DNA from: Nitrosopumilus sp.
GTDB lineage: Archaea > Thermoproteota > Nitrososphaeria > Nitrososphaerales > Nitrosopumilaceae
Length of the DNA stretch: 64,000 nt
NCBI GenBank assembly: GCA_963662625.1
Contig: OY759726.1
Coordinates: forward strand, 1,152,001-1,216,000
Direction of reading: 5' to 3'
The notes beneath the pieces were generated by a model. The model worked only from the letters and a program-made list of their open reading frames with translations. It searched no databases and was not told the origin of the DNA. Positions 41,108 to 45,019 of this stretch are shown here, piece after piece (positions within the stretch are counted from its first letter, which is position 1; every line of letters starts with the position of its first letter). The position numbers and the translations under genes are program-made.

Positions 41108-41605
41108 ATGCCAAAGGCAAGCGTGCTGCTGCTGTTGGTCGGCGGGATACTGGGGCTGGGGATAACGCTCTCGTTCTACGGCAACCAGGCCCTCTTCGAG
41201 GATCTGGCCGACGGGGGAGGCGACGTCAGGCCTGGGGAGAAGCTCGAGGTCAGGGCGGAACTGGAGCGGTCAGACGAGGGCGGGATCTACGCGATCCAGG
41301 TGGAAGATCCCGACGGGGGGCCGGTCTCAGTGCGGGTACTGGATCCCGGGGGCGCCGAGGTGGGCTCCGGCCTTGTCGGCGGCGAACTGTTCGAGGGGAG
41401 GTTCGCGGTGGACTCCGACGGCGCCTACACGCTGGTCGCAAGGAACGACGGGACGGGCCCAGTCAAGGTCTTCGCCGTGATGGGGCCGGAACCCGACGCG
41501 GGCACGAAGTCGTTGGGGTTCGTCTCGCTGTACGTGCTGGTCATAGGGCTGCTGGGCATGGCCGGCGTGGCGATCTTCGCGGTTAGGAACAGGAAGCGGC
41601 CCTAG
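41108..41605 (+). CDS. Membrane-anchored hypothetical protein
   Basis: N- and C-terminal TM helices flanking a beta-rich domain. Confidence 0.75.
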   Translation: MPKASVLLLLVGGILGLGITLSFYGNQALFEDLADGGGDVRPGEKLEVRAELERSDEGGIYAIQVEDPDGGPVSVRVLDPGGAEVGSGLVGGELFEGRFAVDSDGAYTLVARNDGTGPVKVFAVMGPEPDAGTKSLGFVSLYVLVIGLLGMAGVAIFAVRNRKRP

Positions 41606-41907
41606 TTCAGGTAGCTGTCCATCTTCTCCAGGCCGCCGATCGCGGAGTCGAAATCCTCGCCCTCGACTATCCCAGCCAGCATCTCGGTGTTTGCCGAAAA
41701 GTAGGCCTTCCCGCCGTCGAGCCTCTGGATCACGAACCCCGTCTCTACCAGGTACCCGAGCCTCTGCCGGACGTCGTCCTCGGTGGTGGAGGCGGCACTT
41801 GCCAAAAACGAGCATTCCTTCTCGCCGTCCTCCAGCTCCGCGATGACGGCCGAAGTCACTGGATCAAACATGCAGTCGACCACCTTGTCCCTGTCAAAGT
41901 CGGGCAT
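41602..41907 (-). CDS. Small winged-helix-like protein
   Basis: ArsR-like spacing (FDPVTSAVIAELEDGEK...VRQRLGYLVETGFV). Confidence 0.65.
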   Translation of the reverse strand: MPDFDRDKVVDCMFDPVTSAVIAELEDGEKECSFLASAASTTEDDVRQRLGYLVETGFVIQRLDGGKAYFSANTEMLAGIVEGEDFDSAIGGLEKMDSYLN

Positions 41908-42037
41908 CCTCTTGGAGGGGCGGGGAGGGAATTTAAGAATTTCCAGTCAGGGCGGGCACGGGCCCCGGATCGCGCAGTCGGCGCCGCCTGGGTCACGGGT
42001 GCTTGTGCACCAATAAGGTAATTAGTAAACCCCCCCC

Positions 42038-42199
42038 ATGCAACCCATGCAGAAACTGTGCGAGGGGGACGCCTCCGGGAGGGGGCAGCACTGCTTCTGC
42101 ATGGAGGTCGACCCCAGGAGCGGGGTGCGGAAGTGCTGCAGGTGCAACAGGTGGAACATCCAGGGGCGGGACTGGACAGACGACTCTGACTTCCGGTGA
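42038..42199 (+). CDS. 53-aa Cys-rich microprotein (not in the ORF track)
   Basis: MQPMQKLCEGDASGRGQHCFCMEVDPRSGVRKCCRCNRWNIQGRDWTDDSDFR*; GC3-rich codons; AT-rich tract ~20 nt upstream. Confidence 0.65.
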   Translation: MQPMQKLCEGDASGRGQHCFCMEVDPRSGVRKCCRCNRWNIQGRDWTDDSDFR

Positions 42200-42261
42200 T
42201 CCCGCGCAATACCGCGGTTCCTACCGCGATATCGCGAAAACACGCGCGATCGCGCGAGCCA

Positions 42262-42293
42262 TGCCTAATAGTCTGTTGCCTAATAGTCTGTTG
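42262..42293 (+). repeat. 15-bp tandem duplication TGCCTAATAGTCTGT x2 (+TG)
   Basis: Read directly at the IS5/IS110 left junction. Confidence 0.95.
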
Positions 42294-42324
42294 AACACAT
42301 GATAACCACCCAGGCGTAGTTGCC

Positions 42325-42446
42325 CCGATGGATCGACCCCTGGTAGCGCGTGGGCCTGGCGCCCTTTCTGTTGAATGGGGCAATCCGAGCTGCTGTGTCA
42401 CTGGGCTTCGCGCCCTGATAGGTGTGTGCAGCTTCCGATCCGTCAG
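42325..42446 (+). ncRNA. Candidate bridge RNA (boundaries approximate)
   Basis: Nested stems (42327-35/42436-44, 42346-50/42409-13), GCAA tetraloop, and unpaired TCTGTTG (target match) and ATAGGTG (donor match). Confidence 0.55.
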
Positions 42447-42473
42447 ACATCCGAAAGGAGGTGATAGGAAAGG

Positions 42474-43565
42474 ATGAGAAAGACAAGCATAGGGATAGAC
42501 ATAGGGAAGAGAAAGTGCGACGCGTGCGTGGTGGACGGGAACGGGAAGGTTCTCGAGAGGGGGCAGTACCCCAACACCCGGGACGGCGCGGCGAAGTTCG
42601 CAGGGGTGATGGCGCGCAGGTACCTGGGCGGCGGCCCCTGCAGGGCCGCCTGCGAGACGACTGGCAACATGTGGAACAAGACGTTTGACGCCTTCGAGGC
42701 GGCCGGGATCGACATCAAACTGGCCAACACGTACAAGATGGCCCTGATAGCCAGGACCGCCAAGAAGACCGACAGGATTGACGCAGAGAAGATAGCGCAG
42801 GTGCTGAGGATGGACATGATACCGGAGTGCTACGTCCCCCCGGGCCACACCAGGGGGATACGCGCGATGGTCAGGCAGAGGGTGAGGCTGGTCCAGGACA
42901 GGACGCGCGTGATAAACCGCGTCCACAGCCTCCTGGACCGCCACGACATCCAAATGGACGCCTCCACCATGCACTCCGAAAAGGCCTTGGGGCAGCTGGA
43001 ATCTGCGGAGCTGGGCTCTGGGCACGACGGGTTGGTCCTGGGCCAGTGCGCCCGGCAGGTGAGGCACCTGACGGAGGAGATCTCCGTGACGGAGGGGCTC
43101 CTCGAGATGGAGGCCGCCCACAACGGTGACGCGAGGCTGCTGGCCAGCATGACCGGCGTCGGCACGTTCACCGCGGTGCTGATGGCCTCCGAGATCGGGG
43201 ACGTCTCCAGGTTCAGGGGGCCAAGGCAGATGGTGTCGTGGGCCGGGCTGTGCCCGGTGGTCTACCAGTCGGGGAACCAGCTGTACACGGGGAGGATCAA
43301 GAAGATCGACTCCAGCAGCCTGGTCAACTGGGCCATGTGCGAGGCCGCGAACACCGCCGTGCGGCACGACGCCAGGATGGAAGCCGTGTATGCGTCCGCG
43401 CGCCGGAGGCACGCGGACAAGCATGGGCCGGCAATCATAGTGGTGGCCCACAAGATGGTCACCATAATGTGGCACATGCTGACCACCAAGACACCCTACG
43501 AGTCCCGCAACGAGAGGCTGTACCGGCGCAAGCTGGCCAGGATGGAGAAGGCGCGCCGGGGGTGA
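42474..43565 (+). CDS. IS110-family DEDD recombinase/transposase
   Basis: GIDIG, ACETTG and KKTDRIDA (DEDD); MTGVG HhH; GLCPVVYQSG with catalytic Ser; SD GGAGGTGA at 42457-42464. Confidence 0.95.
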   Translation: MRKTSIGIDIGKRKCDACVVDGNGKVLERGQYPNTRDGAAKFAGVMARRYLGGGPCRAACETTGNMWNKTFDAFEAAGIDIKLANTYKMALIARTAKKTDRIDAEKIAQVLRMDMIPECYVPPGHTRGIRAMVRQRVRLVQDRTRVINRVHSLLDRHDIQMDASTMHSEKALGQLESAELGSGHDGLVLGQCARQVRHLTEEISVTEGLLEMEAAHNGDARLLASMTGVGTFTAVLMASEIGDVSRFRGPRQMVSWAGLCPVVYQSGNQLYTGRIKKIDSSSLVNWAMCEAANTAVRHDARMEAVYASARRRHADKHGPAIIVVAHKMVTIMWHMLTTKTPYESRNERLYRRKLARMEKARRG

Positions 43566-43768
43566 CCCCCCGCGCTGCCCGCATCCCGGATCGTCTTGCC
43601 AGCGCTAGCTATAAATCTCATGCCATGCAACCCAGTCACGGATCGGAAAAACCGCGGGATGCATTGCGGCAACTACGCCTGAGTGGTTAACATAGGTGCA
43701 CAACTGCCAGAAATTGCCGGGTCTAAACAGTTGAACCCCCGGCCCAACCATGTCAAACCGAAAAGGCC

Positions 43769-44911
43769 TTGGATCACGGCCGCGCACCGTCCCCGTTGGC
43801 TGCGACCGACAACGAGAAATACGTCAGGCGCGGGAGGGGCCTGGCTGTGTCGTATGACCCCGGCTGGGAGGACGACCTGAGGGAGGCCAACGCCGGCAAG
43901 GAGGGCGCCCCGTTCAGGTACGCCGGGGCGCTGGTCATGGCCGCCGCCGCGGTGAGGACCTCGCTCGGGGTCCAGTACAGGCAGCTGTCCGGGCTCCTCG
44001 CGGGGATGCTGGGGGGGCACGGCGCGCCGCACTACTCGGTGCTGGCCAGGAGGATGGCGCGCCTCGACGTGGACATCGGCGGGGGAGTCGTCCGCGTCTC
44101 CGGCGGCGGCCAGCCCATGACCCTGCTGGCCGACGCCACGGGCCTGAAGCAGTGCAACCGGGGCGAGTGGATACGGAAGAAGTGGAAGGTGAAGCGCGGG
44201 TTCGTCAAGCTGCACCTGCTGGCCGACGCCGACACGAAGAAGATACTCGCGGCGGTGGTGACCGACGACAGGACGGGCGACTCCCCCATGCTGAAGGAGC
44301 TCCTGGGAACCGTGGCGGGGCCGCGTGGCGGGAAGCCGGACGGGAAGCCGGCGGGGAAGCAGGGCGGGAAGCAGGACAGGCGCATGGCGCTGATCCGCGG
44401 GAAGGCAGCCGCGGCGGGGGATCCCCTGCCGCGCGTGGGCTCGCCCCCGCCCAACCTCCTCGCGAGCGGCGTGGCGCCGCTCGCGCTGCAGTGCGGCCAG
44501 CCGCCCGGCTCCCACGGGGCGCGCCTGATCGCGGACGGGGCGTACGCGTCGCGGGACAACATGCGGAGGTGCCGCGACATGGGCGTGGGGCCTATCATCC
44601 CGGTCAAGGTGGCGTCCACCGCCAGGGGCAAGGGCGCCGGCGGCGCGTGGGGCGAGGCGGTGCGGGACCAGCTGGGGGGCGGCCCGGAGGCGCGCGTCGA
44701 CAGGATGGGCACGAGGGAGAGGGAGGAGAACGTCCGGTACTGGAAGGCCAGGAAGGGGTACGGCAGGAGGTGGCTGATCGAGATAATCATATCGGCGTTC
44801 AAGAGGATGTTCGGGGACCACGTGCACTCGCGCAGGTGGGAGAACATCGTGCAGGAGGTAAGGCTCAGGGTGGCCCAGTACAACCGGTGGGCGGGGGAGG
44901 CGGGGGCGTAG
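43769..44911 (+). CDS. IS5-family DDE transposase (5' end possibly frameshifted)
   Basis: NEKYVRRG, YRQLSG, LADATGLK, GEWIRKKW, FVKLHL, ADGAY, YGRRWLIE and FKRMFG; low-complexity insert ~44320-44520. Confidence 0.88.
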   Translation: MDHGRAPSPLAATDNEKYVRRGRGLAVSYDPGWEDDLREANAGKEGAPFRYAGALVMAAAAVRTSLGVQYRQLSGLLAGMLGGHGAPHYSVLARRMARLDVDIGGGVVRVSGGGQPMTLLADATGLKQCNRGEWIRKKWKVKRGFVKLHLLADADTKKILAAVVTDDRTGDSPMLKELLGTVAGPRGGKPDGKPAGKQGGKQDRRMALIRGKAAAAGDPLPRVGSPPPNLLASGVAPLALQCGQPPGSHGARLIADGAYASRDNMRRCRDMGVGPIIPVKVASTARGKGAGGAWGEAVRDQLGGGPEARVDRMGTREREENVRYWKARKGYGRRWLIEIIISAFKRMFGDHVHSRRWENIVQEVRLRVAQYNRWAGEAGA

Positions 44912-45019
44912 GGACTCCAAGCGGCACGGCCTGGCCACGGCCCGGGGATCGTGCCGAGTTGTGCAACAGACTAATGCCTAAGCATGGTTTTTATCGGGGT
45001 AACTGAGAATTTTGGTCAC

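What the first reader, a model, noticed from the sequence alone, without database searches (positions are those of the whole stretch)
42294..42473. Candidate bridge RNA with visible target and donor guides in the IS110 left end
Seen: the ~180-nt left non-coding end folds by eye into nested stems (GATGGATCG 42327-35 with CGATCCGTC 42436-44; GCGCG 42346-50 with CGCGC 42409-13; GGG-GCAA-TCC apical hairpin 42377-86). TCTGTTG at 42367-73 lies in an internal loop and equals the last 7 nt of the left target flank including the TG core. ATAGGTG at 42418-24 equals the element's own right end plus core (43692-98). TGTGCA at 42425-30 is complementary to core plus right target and nearly so to the right donor, so the right-hand guides are ambiguous. 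Each exact 7-mer has roughly a 1% chance in 180 nt. Inference: these are left-target and left-donor guides, in the target-then-donor order known from IS621.
Basis: partly seen in the sequence, partly recalled or inferred. Interest (0 to 1): 0.85.

Follow-up and report, generated by a model that had tools for sequence, protein, structure and literature searches.

The report
Archaeal IS110 bridge RNA, guides remapped
The left end of this archaeal jumping gene does encode a guide ("bridge") RNA that spells out both its insertion site and its own ends, a known kind of system seen here in an unusual layout.

Summary
The finding is real and its main inference is right. Window 42294-43698 is an intact IS110-family element inserted at a TG core in the terminal inverted repeat of an IS5-like element. 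TCTGTTG (42367-73) is the left target guide and ATAGGTG (42418-24) the left donor guide. In about 110 related left ends from 30 genomes of the same archaeal family, these positions change together with the left flank and the element's right end. The fold and the right-hand guides needed correction. Only the outer stem (42327-35/42436-44) is conserved. The family structure is that stem closing two similar modules, each a stem, a right guide, a hairpin and a left guide. The right target guide is GTAGCGCG (42343-50). The right donor guide is TGTGT (42394-98). Within each loop the right guide lies 5' of the left guide. That is the opposite of IS621 and matches the order reported for IS1111 seekRNAs. 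Yet the RNA lies upstream of the recombinase gene and the element has long subterminal inverted repeats. No RNA data were available, so expression and protein binding are inferred. It is a new variant of a known kind.

The parts
42294..43698 (+). IS110-family element (1405 bp, counting the right-hand TG core)
   Evidence: 8 full-length copies in the genome at 84-100% identity. Homology ends at these bases. Empty sites were found.
42284..42293 (+). Left target half TAGTCTGT plus core TG. These are the outer 10 bp of the terminal inverted repeat of an IS5-like element.
   Evidence: Uninterrupted ends read TAGTCTGTTG^CACAACT.
43699..43715 (+). Right target half (CACAACTGCC...), the remainder of the IS5-like terminal repeat
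42301..42324 (+). Left subterminal inverted repeat
   Evidence: Inverted repeat with arms 42292-42334 / 43658-43700, 43 nt, 81% complementary. By eye, 22 of its 24 positions match.
43668..43691 (+). Right subterminal inverted repeat
42327..42335 (+). P1 5' strand. It pairs with 42436-42444 and closes the RNA.
   Evidence: 9 of 9 pairs show compensatory changes across 56 distinct sequences. The stem is also predicted by RNAalifold.
42436..42444 (+). P1 3' strand
42337..42340 (+). P2 5' strand CCCC. It pairs with GGGG 42377-80 and closes the target-binding module.
   Evidence: 95.4% of cells paired, with little variation. The module folds this way on its own.
42343..42350 (+). Right target guide (RTG) GTAGCGCG, antiparallel to core plus right target on the top strand
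   Evidence: 70 rows: 3.69 of 6 Watson-Crick pairs beyond the core, against 1.75 in shuffles (max 2.29). 8/8 examples are. In this copy it pairs 6 of 8 with TGCACAAC (counted by eye with G.U allowed).
42351..42364 (+). Hairpin 1 (P3: GGGC 42352-55 with GCCC 42361-64)
   Evidence: 4 of 4 pairs show compensatory changes. Insertions in relatives extend this hairpin.
42365..42373 (+). Left target guide (LTG). The exact 7-nt match is TCTGTTG, 42367-73.
42387..42393 (+). P4 5' strand GAGCUGC. It pairs with 42428-42434 and closes the donor-binding module.
   Evidence: 95.7% of cells paired, 4 of 7 pairs compensatory. Folds alone, z -1.72.
42394..42398 (+). Right donor guide (RDG) TGTGT, antiparallel to nt 2-6 of the left end (ACACA)
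   Evidence: The highest mutual information in the scan (0.82) falls on this diagonal. 3.94 of 5 pairs against 3.29 in shuffles (max 3.52), 97 rows.
42402..42415 (+). Hairpin 2 (P5: GGGC 42403-06 with GCCC 42412-15)
   Evidence: 4 of 4 pairs compensatory, 99.1% paired
42417..42424 (+). Left donor guide (LDG). The exact 7-nt match is ATAGGTG, 42418-24, equal to 43692-98.
42428..42434 (+). P4 3' strand GCAGCUU.
   Evidence: Invariant or nearly so in relatives with different targets. Paired.
42474..43565 (+). Recombinase gene, 363 aa, intact
   Evidence: PF01548 and PF02371. NF033542 'IS110 family RNA-guided transposase', 242.9 bits against a cutoff of 140. Matches ISCro4 and IS621 transposase structures. 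Catalytic motifs located.
43610..43616 (+). TATAAAT box in the right end, 89 nt before the element's end, facing outward. Candidate archaeal promoter that would read across the circle junction (inferred).
   Evidence: An A/T-rich box stands at the same place (-86 to -89) in several subfamilies. It is mutated to CCATGAAT in the older copies D to G.

Best explanation
Window 42294-43698 is an active-looking IS110-family insertion sequence of an ammonia-oxidising-archaeon-type genome. Its relatives lie in records titled Nitrosopumilaceae.

The roughly 180-nt left end is the gene of a bridge (seek) RNA. The RNA folds into an outer stem, P1 (42327-35/42436-44), that encloses two look-alike modules.

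- Module 1, the target-binding loop, is closed by CCCC/GGGG. It presents the right target guide GUAGCGCG (42343-50), then a hairpin, then the left target guide UCUGUUG (42367-73).
- Module 2, the donor-binding loop, is closed by GAGCUGC/GCAGCUU. It presents the right donor guide UGUGU (42394-98), then a hairpin, then the left donor guide AUAGGUG (42418-24).

[quoted passage not shown] The DEDD/serine recombinase (42474-43565) bound to this RNA then recombines the circle junction with the target at the shared TG core. This places the element 10 bp inside the terminal inverted repeat of an IS5-like element.

Shown here: the sequence matches, guide-target and guide-donor covariation, a conserved structure with compensatory changes, empty target sites, and an intact recombinase with its catalytic motifs.

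Inferred: that the RNA is made, that it binds the recombinase, that a circle forms, and that transcription starts from the TATA box in the right end.
For: Element and target:
- 8 full copies share the left flank TA(G/A)T(C/T)TGTTG.
- 7 of 11 occurrences of the right-flank motif are uninterrupted TAG..TGTTGCACAACTGCC. Two more carry this element.
- Of 28 genomic sites matching TA[GA]T[CT]TGTTG, 9 are followed by this element's left end and 14 by CACAACT.

Relatives:
- A covariance model built from 10 left ends found matches in 27 of 151 genomes of the same family and 24 matches in 5 genomes.
- 121 matches were aligned; 116 were distinct.

Guides:
- LTG: 110 rows, 64 distinct guides, 3.71 of 5 matches against 1.41 (sd 0.107, max 1.82). 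46 rows match 5/5 and 76 match at least 4/5.
- RTG: 70 rows, 38 distinct guides, 3.69 of 6 against 1.75 (sd 0.139, max 2.29). 13 rows pair 6/6.
- LDG: 49 rows with right ends fixed independently by the inverted repeat, 3.96 of 5 against 3.32 (max 3.71). 29 rows match 5/5.
- RDG: 97 rows, 3.94 of 5 against 3.29 (max 3.52).

Natural reprogramming on near-identical backbones:
- L048 and L053 are 95% identical including flanks. 9 differences lie inside the element, and 4 of them fall in the guides.
- L142, L144, L146 and L147 differ almost only in the two target guides, and each matches its own flank.

Structure: 94.4% of cells paired, 23 of 28 pairs with compensatory changes, covariation score 0.372 against 0.172 in shuffles (0 of 500) and at most 0.10 when slid.

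Protein.

Rules for guide sense were taken from passages of PMC11208160 and PMC11208158.
Against: - No RNA evidence. The four sequencing runs that hold the stretch are DNA contigs from one study, and no RNA run was listed.
- No circle junction was seen.
- The whole left end is not more stable than shuffled sequence (z -0.35), and Rfam has no match.
- Covariation counts on A2 lean towards the model, because that alignment was fitted to it.
- The shuffle tests ignore relatedness. The near-identical pairs answer this only by example.
- Copy G (genome 1699637-1701039) carries CGCCATG at the LTG position yet has the flank TAGTCTGTTG.
- Copies D to H carry ATGGGCG at the LDG position while their right ends read ATAGGTG, ATGGGTG or ATAGGAG.
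- In this copy the RTG pairs with only 6 of 8 target bases and the RDG with only 5.
- 34 of 110 rows match the left flank at 3/5 or fewer. Some of these have misplaced boundaries and were kept in the count.
- Right ends could be assigned for only 74 of 116 rows.
Confidence: 0.88

Rival explanations
1. One reading: an IS621-like bridge RNA in which the left guide comes first in each loop, and TGTGCA (42425-30) serves as a right target or right donor guide within one long nested stem-loop.
For: TGTGCA is complementary to TGCACA (core plus right target) in this copy. The nested GCGCG/CGCGC stem appears in the single-sequence MFE fold.
Against: TGCAGCTT is invariant or nearly so in relatives whose right targets differ, and it pairs with GAGCUGC 42387-93. 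The positions that covary with the right target are 42343-50, on the 5' side of hairpin 1. 42346-50 varies freely, so the GCGCG/CGCGC stem is not conserved.
Confidence: 0.04
2. Alternative topology of module 1. The two target guides sit in the loops of two separate hairpins (CCC with GGG of 42352-54, and GCGCCC with GGGGC), as RNAalifold drew on 10 sequences, rather than on the two sides of one internal loop.
For: RNAalifold consensus on A1. The sequences CCCC...GGGC...GCCC...GGGG allow both pairings in this copy.
Against: In relatives the hairpin-1 strands change together (GGGC/GCCC, GUGC/GCAC, GCAC/GUGC, GAUC/GAUC, CGGC/GCCG, read by eye) while CCCC and GGGG stay constant. 4 of 4 P3 pairs are compensatory. 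Insertions in L035, L037 and L038 extend P3. Module 2 has the internal-loop form without ambiguity.
Confidence: 0.06
3. There is no guide RNA. The left end is only a leader or promoter, and its matches to the flank and the right end are chance, or are DNA sites read by the protein.
For: No RNA data. No Rfam family. The left end is not unusually stable.
Against: Four segments covary with four DNA half-sites across dozens of distinct guides. The right guides are antisense and the left guides sense, as in known bridge RNAs. The stems keep pairing through compensatory changes. The protein scores as an 'IS110 family RNA-guided transposase'.
Confidence: 0.02

Closest known systems
IS621 bridge RNA and recombinase (IS110 group; Durrant et al. 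2024, PMC11208160; Hiraizumi et al. 2024, PMC11208158)
   Same: - The RNA is encoded in the left end, upstream of a DEDD/serine recombinase.
- The target-binding module comes first and the donor-binding module second.
- Each module is stem, guide, stem-loop, guide.
- Left guides pair with the bottom strand and right guides with the top strand.
[quoted passage not shown]
- The two modules look alike.
- Recombinase sequences are related (8wt6, E 5e-11).
   Different: - Inside each loop the order is right guide then left guide. IS621 is stem, LTG, stem loop, RTG (passage read).
- The core is TG, or AG in some relatives, not CT.
- The inverted repeat arms are long (43 nt at 81%), not 2-3 bp.
- The right target guide is 8 nt, against 4-7 in IS621.
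- The host is an archaeon, and the candidate promoter is a TATA box wholly inside the right end.
IS1111-group seekRNAs (ISEc11, ISPa11, ISKpn4; Siddiquee et al. 2024, PMC11187229)
   Same: - The segment complementary to the top strand lies 5' of the segment complementary to the bottom strand (passages read).
- Long subterminal inverted repeats.
- Natural reprogramming among close relatives.
   Different: In IS1111 elements the RNA lies downstream of the transposase gene, in a long right end. Here all four guides lie upstream, in the left end (180 nt against a 133-nt right end).
[quoted passage not shown]
   Same: A member of the same IS family that uses the terminal inverted repeat of another transposon as its specific target.
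   Different: Bacterial elements on plasmids, with a different target. That paper was not read here, so the resemblance is a lead from its title.
Bridge RNA variants from large-scale mining (bioRxiv 10.64898/2026.10.21.760802; section 2.4 read)
   Same: That work built 86 covariance models over 32,190 loci and says many structures deviate from IS621 yet covary with target and donor. This family may be among them.
   Different: The section read does not describe an archaeal family, a left-end RNA with right-guide-first order, or IS1111 at all (0 occurrences). Its figures and supplements were not visible to me.

Membership tests
IS110 family RNA-guided (bridge) recombinase systems | Recombinase with an N-terminal DEDD RuvC-like domain and a C-terminal Tnp domain | tested here: met
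   PF01548 (E 6e-28) and PF02371 (E 6.5e-22). NF033542 at 242.9 bits against a cutoff of 140.
IS110 family RNA-guided (bridge) recombinase systems | Catalytic D, E, D, D and Ser residues present | tested here: met
   The alignment to ISCro4 transposase 9t56 shows IGID, CET, KTDxxD and YQSG aligned to IGID, MEA, KTDxxD and YESG. Positions are D9, E61, D100, D103 and S266. Their identity as the catalytic residues rests on the IS621 numbering read and on analogy.
IS110 family RNA-guided (bridge) recombinase systems | Structured non-coding RNA with two guide-bearing loops in a non-coding end | tested here: met
   Five helices, 23 of 28 pairs compensatory. Modules fold alone.
IS110 family RNA-guided (bridge) recombinase systems | Guides covary with target and donor half-sites | tested here: met
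IS110 family RNA-guided (bridge) recombinase systems | Same core dinucleotide on both sides of the insertion and once in the empty site | tested here: met
   TG at 42292-93 and 43697-98. Empty sites read ...TGTTG^CACAAC.
IS110 family RNA-guided (bridge) recombinase systems | RNA is expressed and binds the recombinase; a circular intermediate forms | not testable with these tools
   No RNA run was listed, and only DNA contigs were laid, without joints.
IS110 group (IS621-like) | Bridge RNA in the left end | tested here: met
   All four guides lie between 42343 and 42424.
IS110 group (IS621-like) | [quoted passage not shown] | tested here: not met
   RTG 42343-50 precedes LTG 42365-73, and RDG 42394-98 precedes LDG 42417-24.
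IS110 group (IS621-like) | Only a 2-3 bp subterminal inverted repeat | tested here: not met
   43-nt arms at 81%
IS1111 group | Subterminal inverted repeats (7-17 bp in the literature) | tested here: met
   Present, and longer than the published range. Also present in relatives.
IS1111 group | Top-strand complement 5' of bottom-strand complement in the RNA | tested here: met
IS1111 group | RNA encoded downstream of the transposase gene, in a right end longer than the left end | tested here: not met
   Guides and the model match lie in the left end. The left end is 180 nt and the right end 133 nt.
IS1111 group | Recombinase branches with IS1111-group recombinases | not tested
   No ISfinder reference set was on hand. 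Pairwise hits to bacterial relatives are all 23-34% identical and do not discriminate.

The most novel reading that the evidence does not exclude
This archaeal lineage is a mosaic, perhaps an intermediate, between the IS1111 and IS110 groups. It has an IS1111-type RNA (right guide first, long subterminal repeats) placed upstream of the recombinase gene.

The RNA and the recombinase gene have no promoter of their own. They would be switched on only in the excised circle, by an archaeal TATA promoter that sits wholly in the right end about 87 nt before the junction.

The junction-spanning transcript would then carry both subterminal repeats as a hairpin, plus a right-end segment (43637-45) that can replace the 5' strand of P1. 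In the integrated state the same promoter fires outward, into the IS5-like transposase gene that the element has invaded.
Probability: 0.3. Interest if true: 0.6.

Novelty: new variant of a known kind. Interest (0 to 1): 0.45.

Why it matters
Bridge RNAs are the basis of programmable recombinases now being engineered. This family adds four things.

- It is a well-supported natural example from ammonia-oxidising archaea, found in 27 of 151 sampled genomes of one family.
- It offers dozens of naturally reprogrammed guide pairs on near-identical backbones.
- Its right target guide is a full 8 nt.
- Its layout combines features used to separate the IS110 and IS1111 groups: RNA upstream, but right guide first and long subterminal repeats.

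That combination bears on how the RNA moved between the element's ends during evolution. It also shows that guide order within a loop is not tied to the RNA's position.

For annotation, it shows that these left ends can be read directly to predict insertion sites. Here the site is the terminal repeat of another insertion sequence.

Tried and rejected
Rfam search of 41500-44500 at E up to 10. It returned one weak snoRNA match (18.8 bits against a gathering score of 35), which I judged to be chance. No bridge RNA family matched.

Single-sequence folds of the left and right ends. Neither is more stable than shuffles. The MFE fold of the left end is not the conserved structure.

Finding right ends by the end of homology between paralogues. 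Cross-subfamily alignments stop at the end of the gene, so this was abandoned. I used the inverted-repeat anchor and the exact donor-guide match instead. That fixed 74 of 116 right ends.

Public sequencing runs. Four runs from one study hold the stretch, all as Logan contigs. No RNA holder was listed. Laying them gave fragmentary contigs and no joints. The loose ends at 43697 (GTAGTCTGT...) are the empty IS5-like ends of other copies. This says nothing about expression or excision.

Model R1 on a Halobellus plasmid element at 34% protein identity. There was no significant match, although by eye that element has the same end types and guide-like matches.

Phylum-wide search. Only 1 of the 131 genomes outside the family had a match (E 4.6e-6). 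The model probably does not reach further, so this does not show absence.

Group assignment by protein similarity. Identities to all bacterial relatives and to the solved IS621 and ISCro4 structures are low and alike, so no decision was possible.

A count of all near-identical backbone pairs with different guides could not be made, because the script machine was lost. Two example sets were aligned instead.

Supplementary tables of PMC11208160, PMC11187229 and the 2026 preprint were not available. They may already list this family.

Full report
**What is there**

The window holds a 363-aa open frame at 42474-43565. It carries the two Pfam domains of IS110-family transposases. It scores 242.9 bits, against a cutoff of 140, on NCBI's model named 'IS110 family RNA-guided transposase'. 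It matches the solved ISCro4 and IS621 transposases (E 4e-12 and 5e-11). The IGID, CET, KTDxxD and YQSG motifs are in register with theirs (D9, E61, D100, D103, S266).

The window's genome is one contig of 1.86 Mb. It holds 8 full-length copies of the surrounding 1.4 kb at 84-100% identity, plus fragments.

**Boundaries and target**

In all 8 copies homology starts right after TA(G/A)T(C/T)TGTTG and ends with ...ATAGGTG. Two copies vary this ending, to ATGGGTG and ATAGGAG.

The DNA to the right of the window copy is itself repeated. Of 11 occurrences of its first unique 16 nt, 7 are preceded by an uninterrupted TAG(T/C)(C/T)TGTTGCACA. Two are preceded by this element's right end, one by an internal fragment of it, and one is divergent.

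Across the genome, 28 sites match TA[GA]T[CT]TGTTG:
- 9 are followed by this element's left end.
- 14 are followed by CACAACT, with two different continuations. These are the two ends of an IS5-like element whose DDE transposase gene lies at 43769-44911.
- 5 are followed by something else.

So the element is 42294-43698, the core TG is present on both sides, and the target is TAGTCTGT-TG-CACAAC, 10 bp inside the terminal inverted repeat of another insertion sequence.

All quoted strings are at the quoted coordinates. The match of the RNA to the left junction is in fact 9 nt (42367-75 = 42287-95).

**Relatives**

The recombinase has relatives at 49-67% identity in contigs titled Nitrosopumilaceae, Nitrosopumilus or Thaumarchaeota archaeon. 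Their left ends align with the window's.

- By eye, the 7-9 nt at the position of 42365-73 equal each element's own left flank. One relative has an AG core in both its left guides and at both junctions.
- I built a covariance model from 10 left ends.
- It found 24 matches in five of those genomes.
- It found matches in 27 of 151 sampled genomes of the window's family. One of the 27 is an unpublished genome whose sequence I did not use.
- It found a match in only 1 of the 131 genomes outside the family in a phylum sample.
- I fetched 60 further loci and aligned 121 matches to the model. 116 were distinct.

**Left target guide**

- Of the 116 rows, 110 had at least 12 nt of flank and no gap in the guide.
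- The 5 variable positions next to the core equal the flank at 3.71 of 5 on average, against 1.41 in 2000 shuffles (sd 0.107, maximum 1.82).
- 46 rows match 5/5 and 76 match at least 4/5.
- There are 64 distinct guides. Of these, 41 have at least one insertion matching 4/5 or better.
- Rows whose boundary the model misplaces (one subfamily starts 8 nt further left) were kept and count as misses.

**Right target guide**

Right ends could be fixed for 74 of 116 rows, by the subterminal inverted repeat and/or an exact match of the donor guide. 70 rows were usable.

The 8 nt just 5' of hairpin 1 (window 42343-50) are the reverse complement of core plus right flank.
- Beyond the core, 3.69 of 6 Watson-Crick pairs against 1.75 (sd 0.139, maximum 2.29).
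- With G.U allowed, 4.16 against 2.57.
- 13 rows pair 6/6 (17 with G.U).
- There are 38 distinct guides.
- One search shows 8/8 cases such as GTTATGCA with TG-CATAAC and CATTTTCA with TG-AAAATG.

In the window copy GUAGCGCG pairs with TGCACAAC at 6 of 8 positions. It pairs 7 of 8 with the sites of copies D and E (TGCGCGAC, TGCGCAAC). Both counts were made by eye.

**Donor guides**

With right ends fixed independently of the guide (49 rows), the 5 nt before the core equal the left donor guide at 3.96 of 5, against 3.32 (maximum 3.71). The classes ATGGA, ATAGG and ATAGA each pair with the identical right end, in 11, 9 and 8 rows.

A scan of every RNA column against the first bases of the left end put the highest mutual information (0.82) on column 104 against left-end base 3. 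Along that diagonal, window 42394-98 (UGUGU) pairs with left-end bases 2-6 (ACACA).
- 3.94 of 5 against 3.29 (sd 0.061, maximum 3.52), 97 rows.
- Switches include GCUUU with AAAGC and GCCUU with AAGGC.

**Control for relatedness**

Shuffles ignore kinship, so I looked at near-identical elements.
- L048 and L053, from one genome, differ at 9 positions inside the element. Three lie in the left target guide and one in the right target guide, and their flanks differ accordingly.
- L142, L144, L146 and L147 differ almost only in the two target guides. Each left guide (CCAGATG, CCAAATG, CCATGTG) equals its own flank.
- A full count of such pairs failed when the script machine was lost.

**Structure**

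On 56 distinct sequences the five-helix structure keeps 94.4% of cells paired. It has compensatory changes in 23 of 28 pairs, including all 9 of P1, all 4 of hairpin 1 and all 4 of hairpin 2. Its covariation score is 0.372, against 0.172 in shuffles (0 of 500) and at most 0.10 when partners are slid. That alignment was fitted to the model, which favours it.

The smaller MAFFT alignment gives the same P1, P4 and hairpin 2 by RNAalifold. RNAalifold draws module 1 differently there. The compensatory changes in hairpin 1 argue against that alternative. Each module folds as proposed on its own.

**Comparison with what is known**

- In IS621 each loop reads stem, left guide, stem-loop, right guide. 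Left guides pair with the bottom strand and right guides with the top strand (passages of PMC11208160 and PMC11208158). Here the senses are the same but the order inside each loop is reversed.
[quoted passage not shown] So this family has the IS1111 order.
- It also has long subterminal inverted repeats (43-nt arms at 81%), the feature by which IS1111 is set apart (PMC11208160, section 'Diverse IS110s encode bridge RNAs').
- That section places IS1111 RNAs in a long right end downstream of the gene. Here the RNA is in the left end (180 nt against 133 nt).

The family therefore fails one defining feature of each group. I file it under the IS110 family at large, as a variant layout.

A 2026 preprint reports 86 covariance models over 32,190 bridge RNA loci, many of which deviate from IS621 (section 2.4 read). 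'IS1111' occurs nowhere in its text and archaea only in general terms. This family may be among its clusters, but I could not see its figures or supplements.

Two literature searches found no paper that describes bridge RNAs of Nitrosopumilaceae. A 2024 preprint counts 662 archaeal IS110 recombinases without treating their RNAs (passages).

**State of the copies**

Copies A (the window), B and C are 97-100% alike. They keep TATAAAT in the right end and a donor guide equal to their right end. Copies D to H are 84-94% identical. Among them D to G read CCATGAAT in place of the TATA box, F and H have lost the ATG, and all of D to H carry ATGGGCG in place of the donor guide. The window copy is thus one of the young, presumably active ones.

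**What remains inferred**

No RNA data exist for this stretch in the runs on offer, and the DNA contigs show no circle junction. Expression, binding to the recombinase, circle formation and the promoter are inferences from homology and from conserved sequence.

Noticed in passing
window 42262-42291: An exact 15-nt tandem duplication (TGCCTAATAGTCTGT twice) lies immediately left of the insertion. It repeats the outer part of the IS5-like terminal repeat together with its flank, so TAGTCTGTTG occurs twice (42269-78 and 42284-93). It may be a footprint of an earlier event. Unexplained.
   Followed up: partly
window 42284-42293 plus 43699-44973: An IS5-like element (DDE_Tnp_1 gene 43769-44911) is split 10 bp inside its terminal repeat by the IS110 element. 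Its far end was located. ATGCCTAA stands on both outer sides. 14 other ends of this element family in the genome are unoccupied.
   Followed up: partly
window 43610-43616, and the same place in related loci: A TATA-like box lies 86-89 nt before the right end and faces outward. It is present in several subfamilies (TATAAA, TTTAAA, TTAAAT) and is mutated in the older copies D to G of this genome. In the integrated state it points into the IS5-like transposase gene. In a circle it would point into the bridge RNA and the recombinase gene.
   Followed up: partly
window 43637-43645: The right-end segment CACGGATCG can pair with the 3' strand of P1 (42436-44). In relatives a segment at the same distance (-57 to -62) changes with that strand (best pairing 7.33 of 9 against 6.83 in shuffles, sd 0.093, 46 rows). 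Either it is a second copy of the P1 5' strand, or a junction-spanning transcript can form an alternative closing stem.
   Followed up: partly
genome copy G (C1:1699637-1701039; locus L007): This copy has a different target module (CGCCATG at the left target guide, GTATGGTG at the right target guide). Yet it sits at the usual TAGTCTGTTG site, and its right end reads AG instead of TG. Its right flank begins CGCCAC, which resembles its own left guide. Unexplained. It may stem from recombination between copies or from change after insertion.
   Followed up: no
all paralogues; window 42294-43698: Differences between copies are almost all A>G and T>C. GC of the left end rises from 0.58 in the young copies to 0.68 in the oldest. 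The genome is 63.4% GC, and relatives in other genomes have left ends of 0.37-0.55 GC. This could be amelioration of an imported element or biased mutation.
   Followed up: no
alignments A2 and A3: The stems of hairpin 1 and hairpin 2 change together across subfamilies. GGGC/GCCC, GUGC/GCAC, GCAC/GUGC and CGGC/GCCG each appear in both hairpins of the same element. This fits two like protein subunits reading two like modules, or copying between the modules.
   Followed up: no
L049 and L131 right junctions: In some relatives the sequence predicted by the right target guide lies 4-5 nt beyond the core (extra GAGGT in L049, extra GGTG in L131). It looks as if a few bases were duplicated at the junction.
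   Followed up: no
window 42448-42461: A small conserved hairpin, CAUCC-GAAA-GGAGG, would sequester the Shine-Dalgarno-like GGAGGUGAU (42457-65) just upstream of the ATG (pairs UCC/GGA, no covariation).
   Followed up: no
L165 (Halobellus sp. plasmid NZ_CP134948.1, 45033-47410): A haloarchaeal IS110-family element at 34% protein identity has the same kind of ends: AATCCATGAAAATCCCGCACC on the left and GGTGCGGGATTTTCATAGGAG on the right. In its left end, CATAGGAG equals its right end, and GGTTAGAG-AATGG resembles its left flank GAGTAGAG. An IS5-family gene lies next to it. The layout may therefore be wider among archaea than model R1 can reach.
   Followed up: partly
L150: One element's right end abuts directly on the left end of an element of another subfamily (right flank AAAGCCTGTAAATC), giving a tandem pair.
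   Followed up: no
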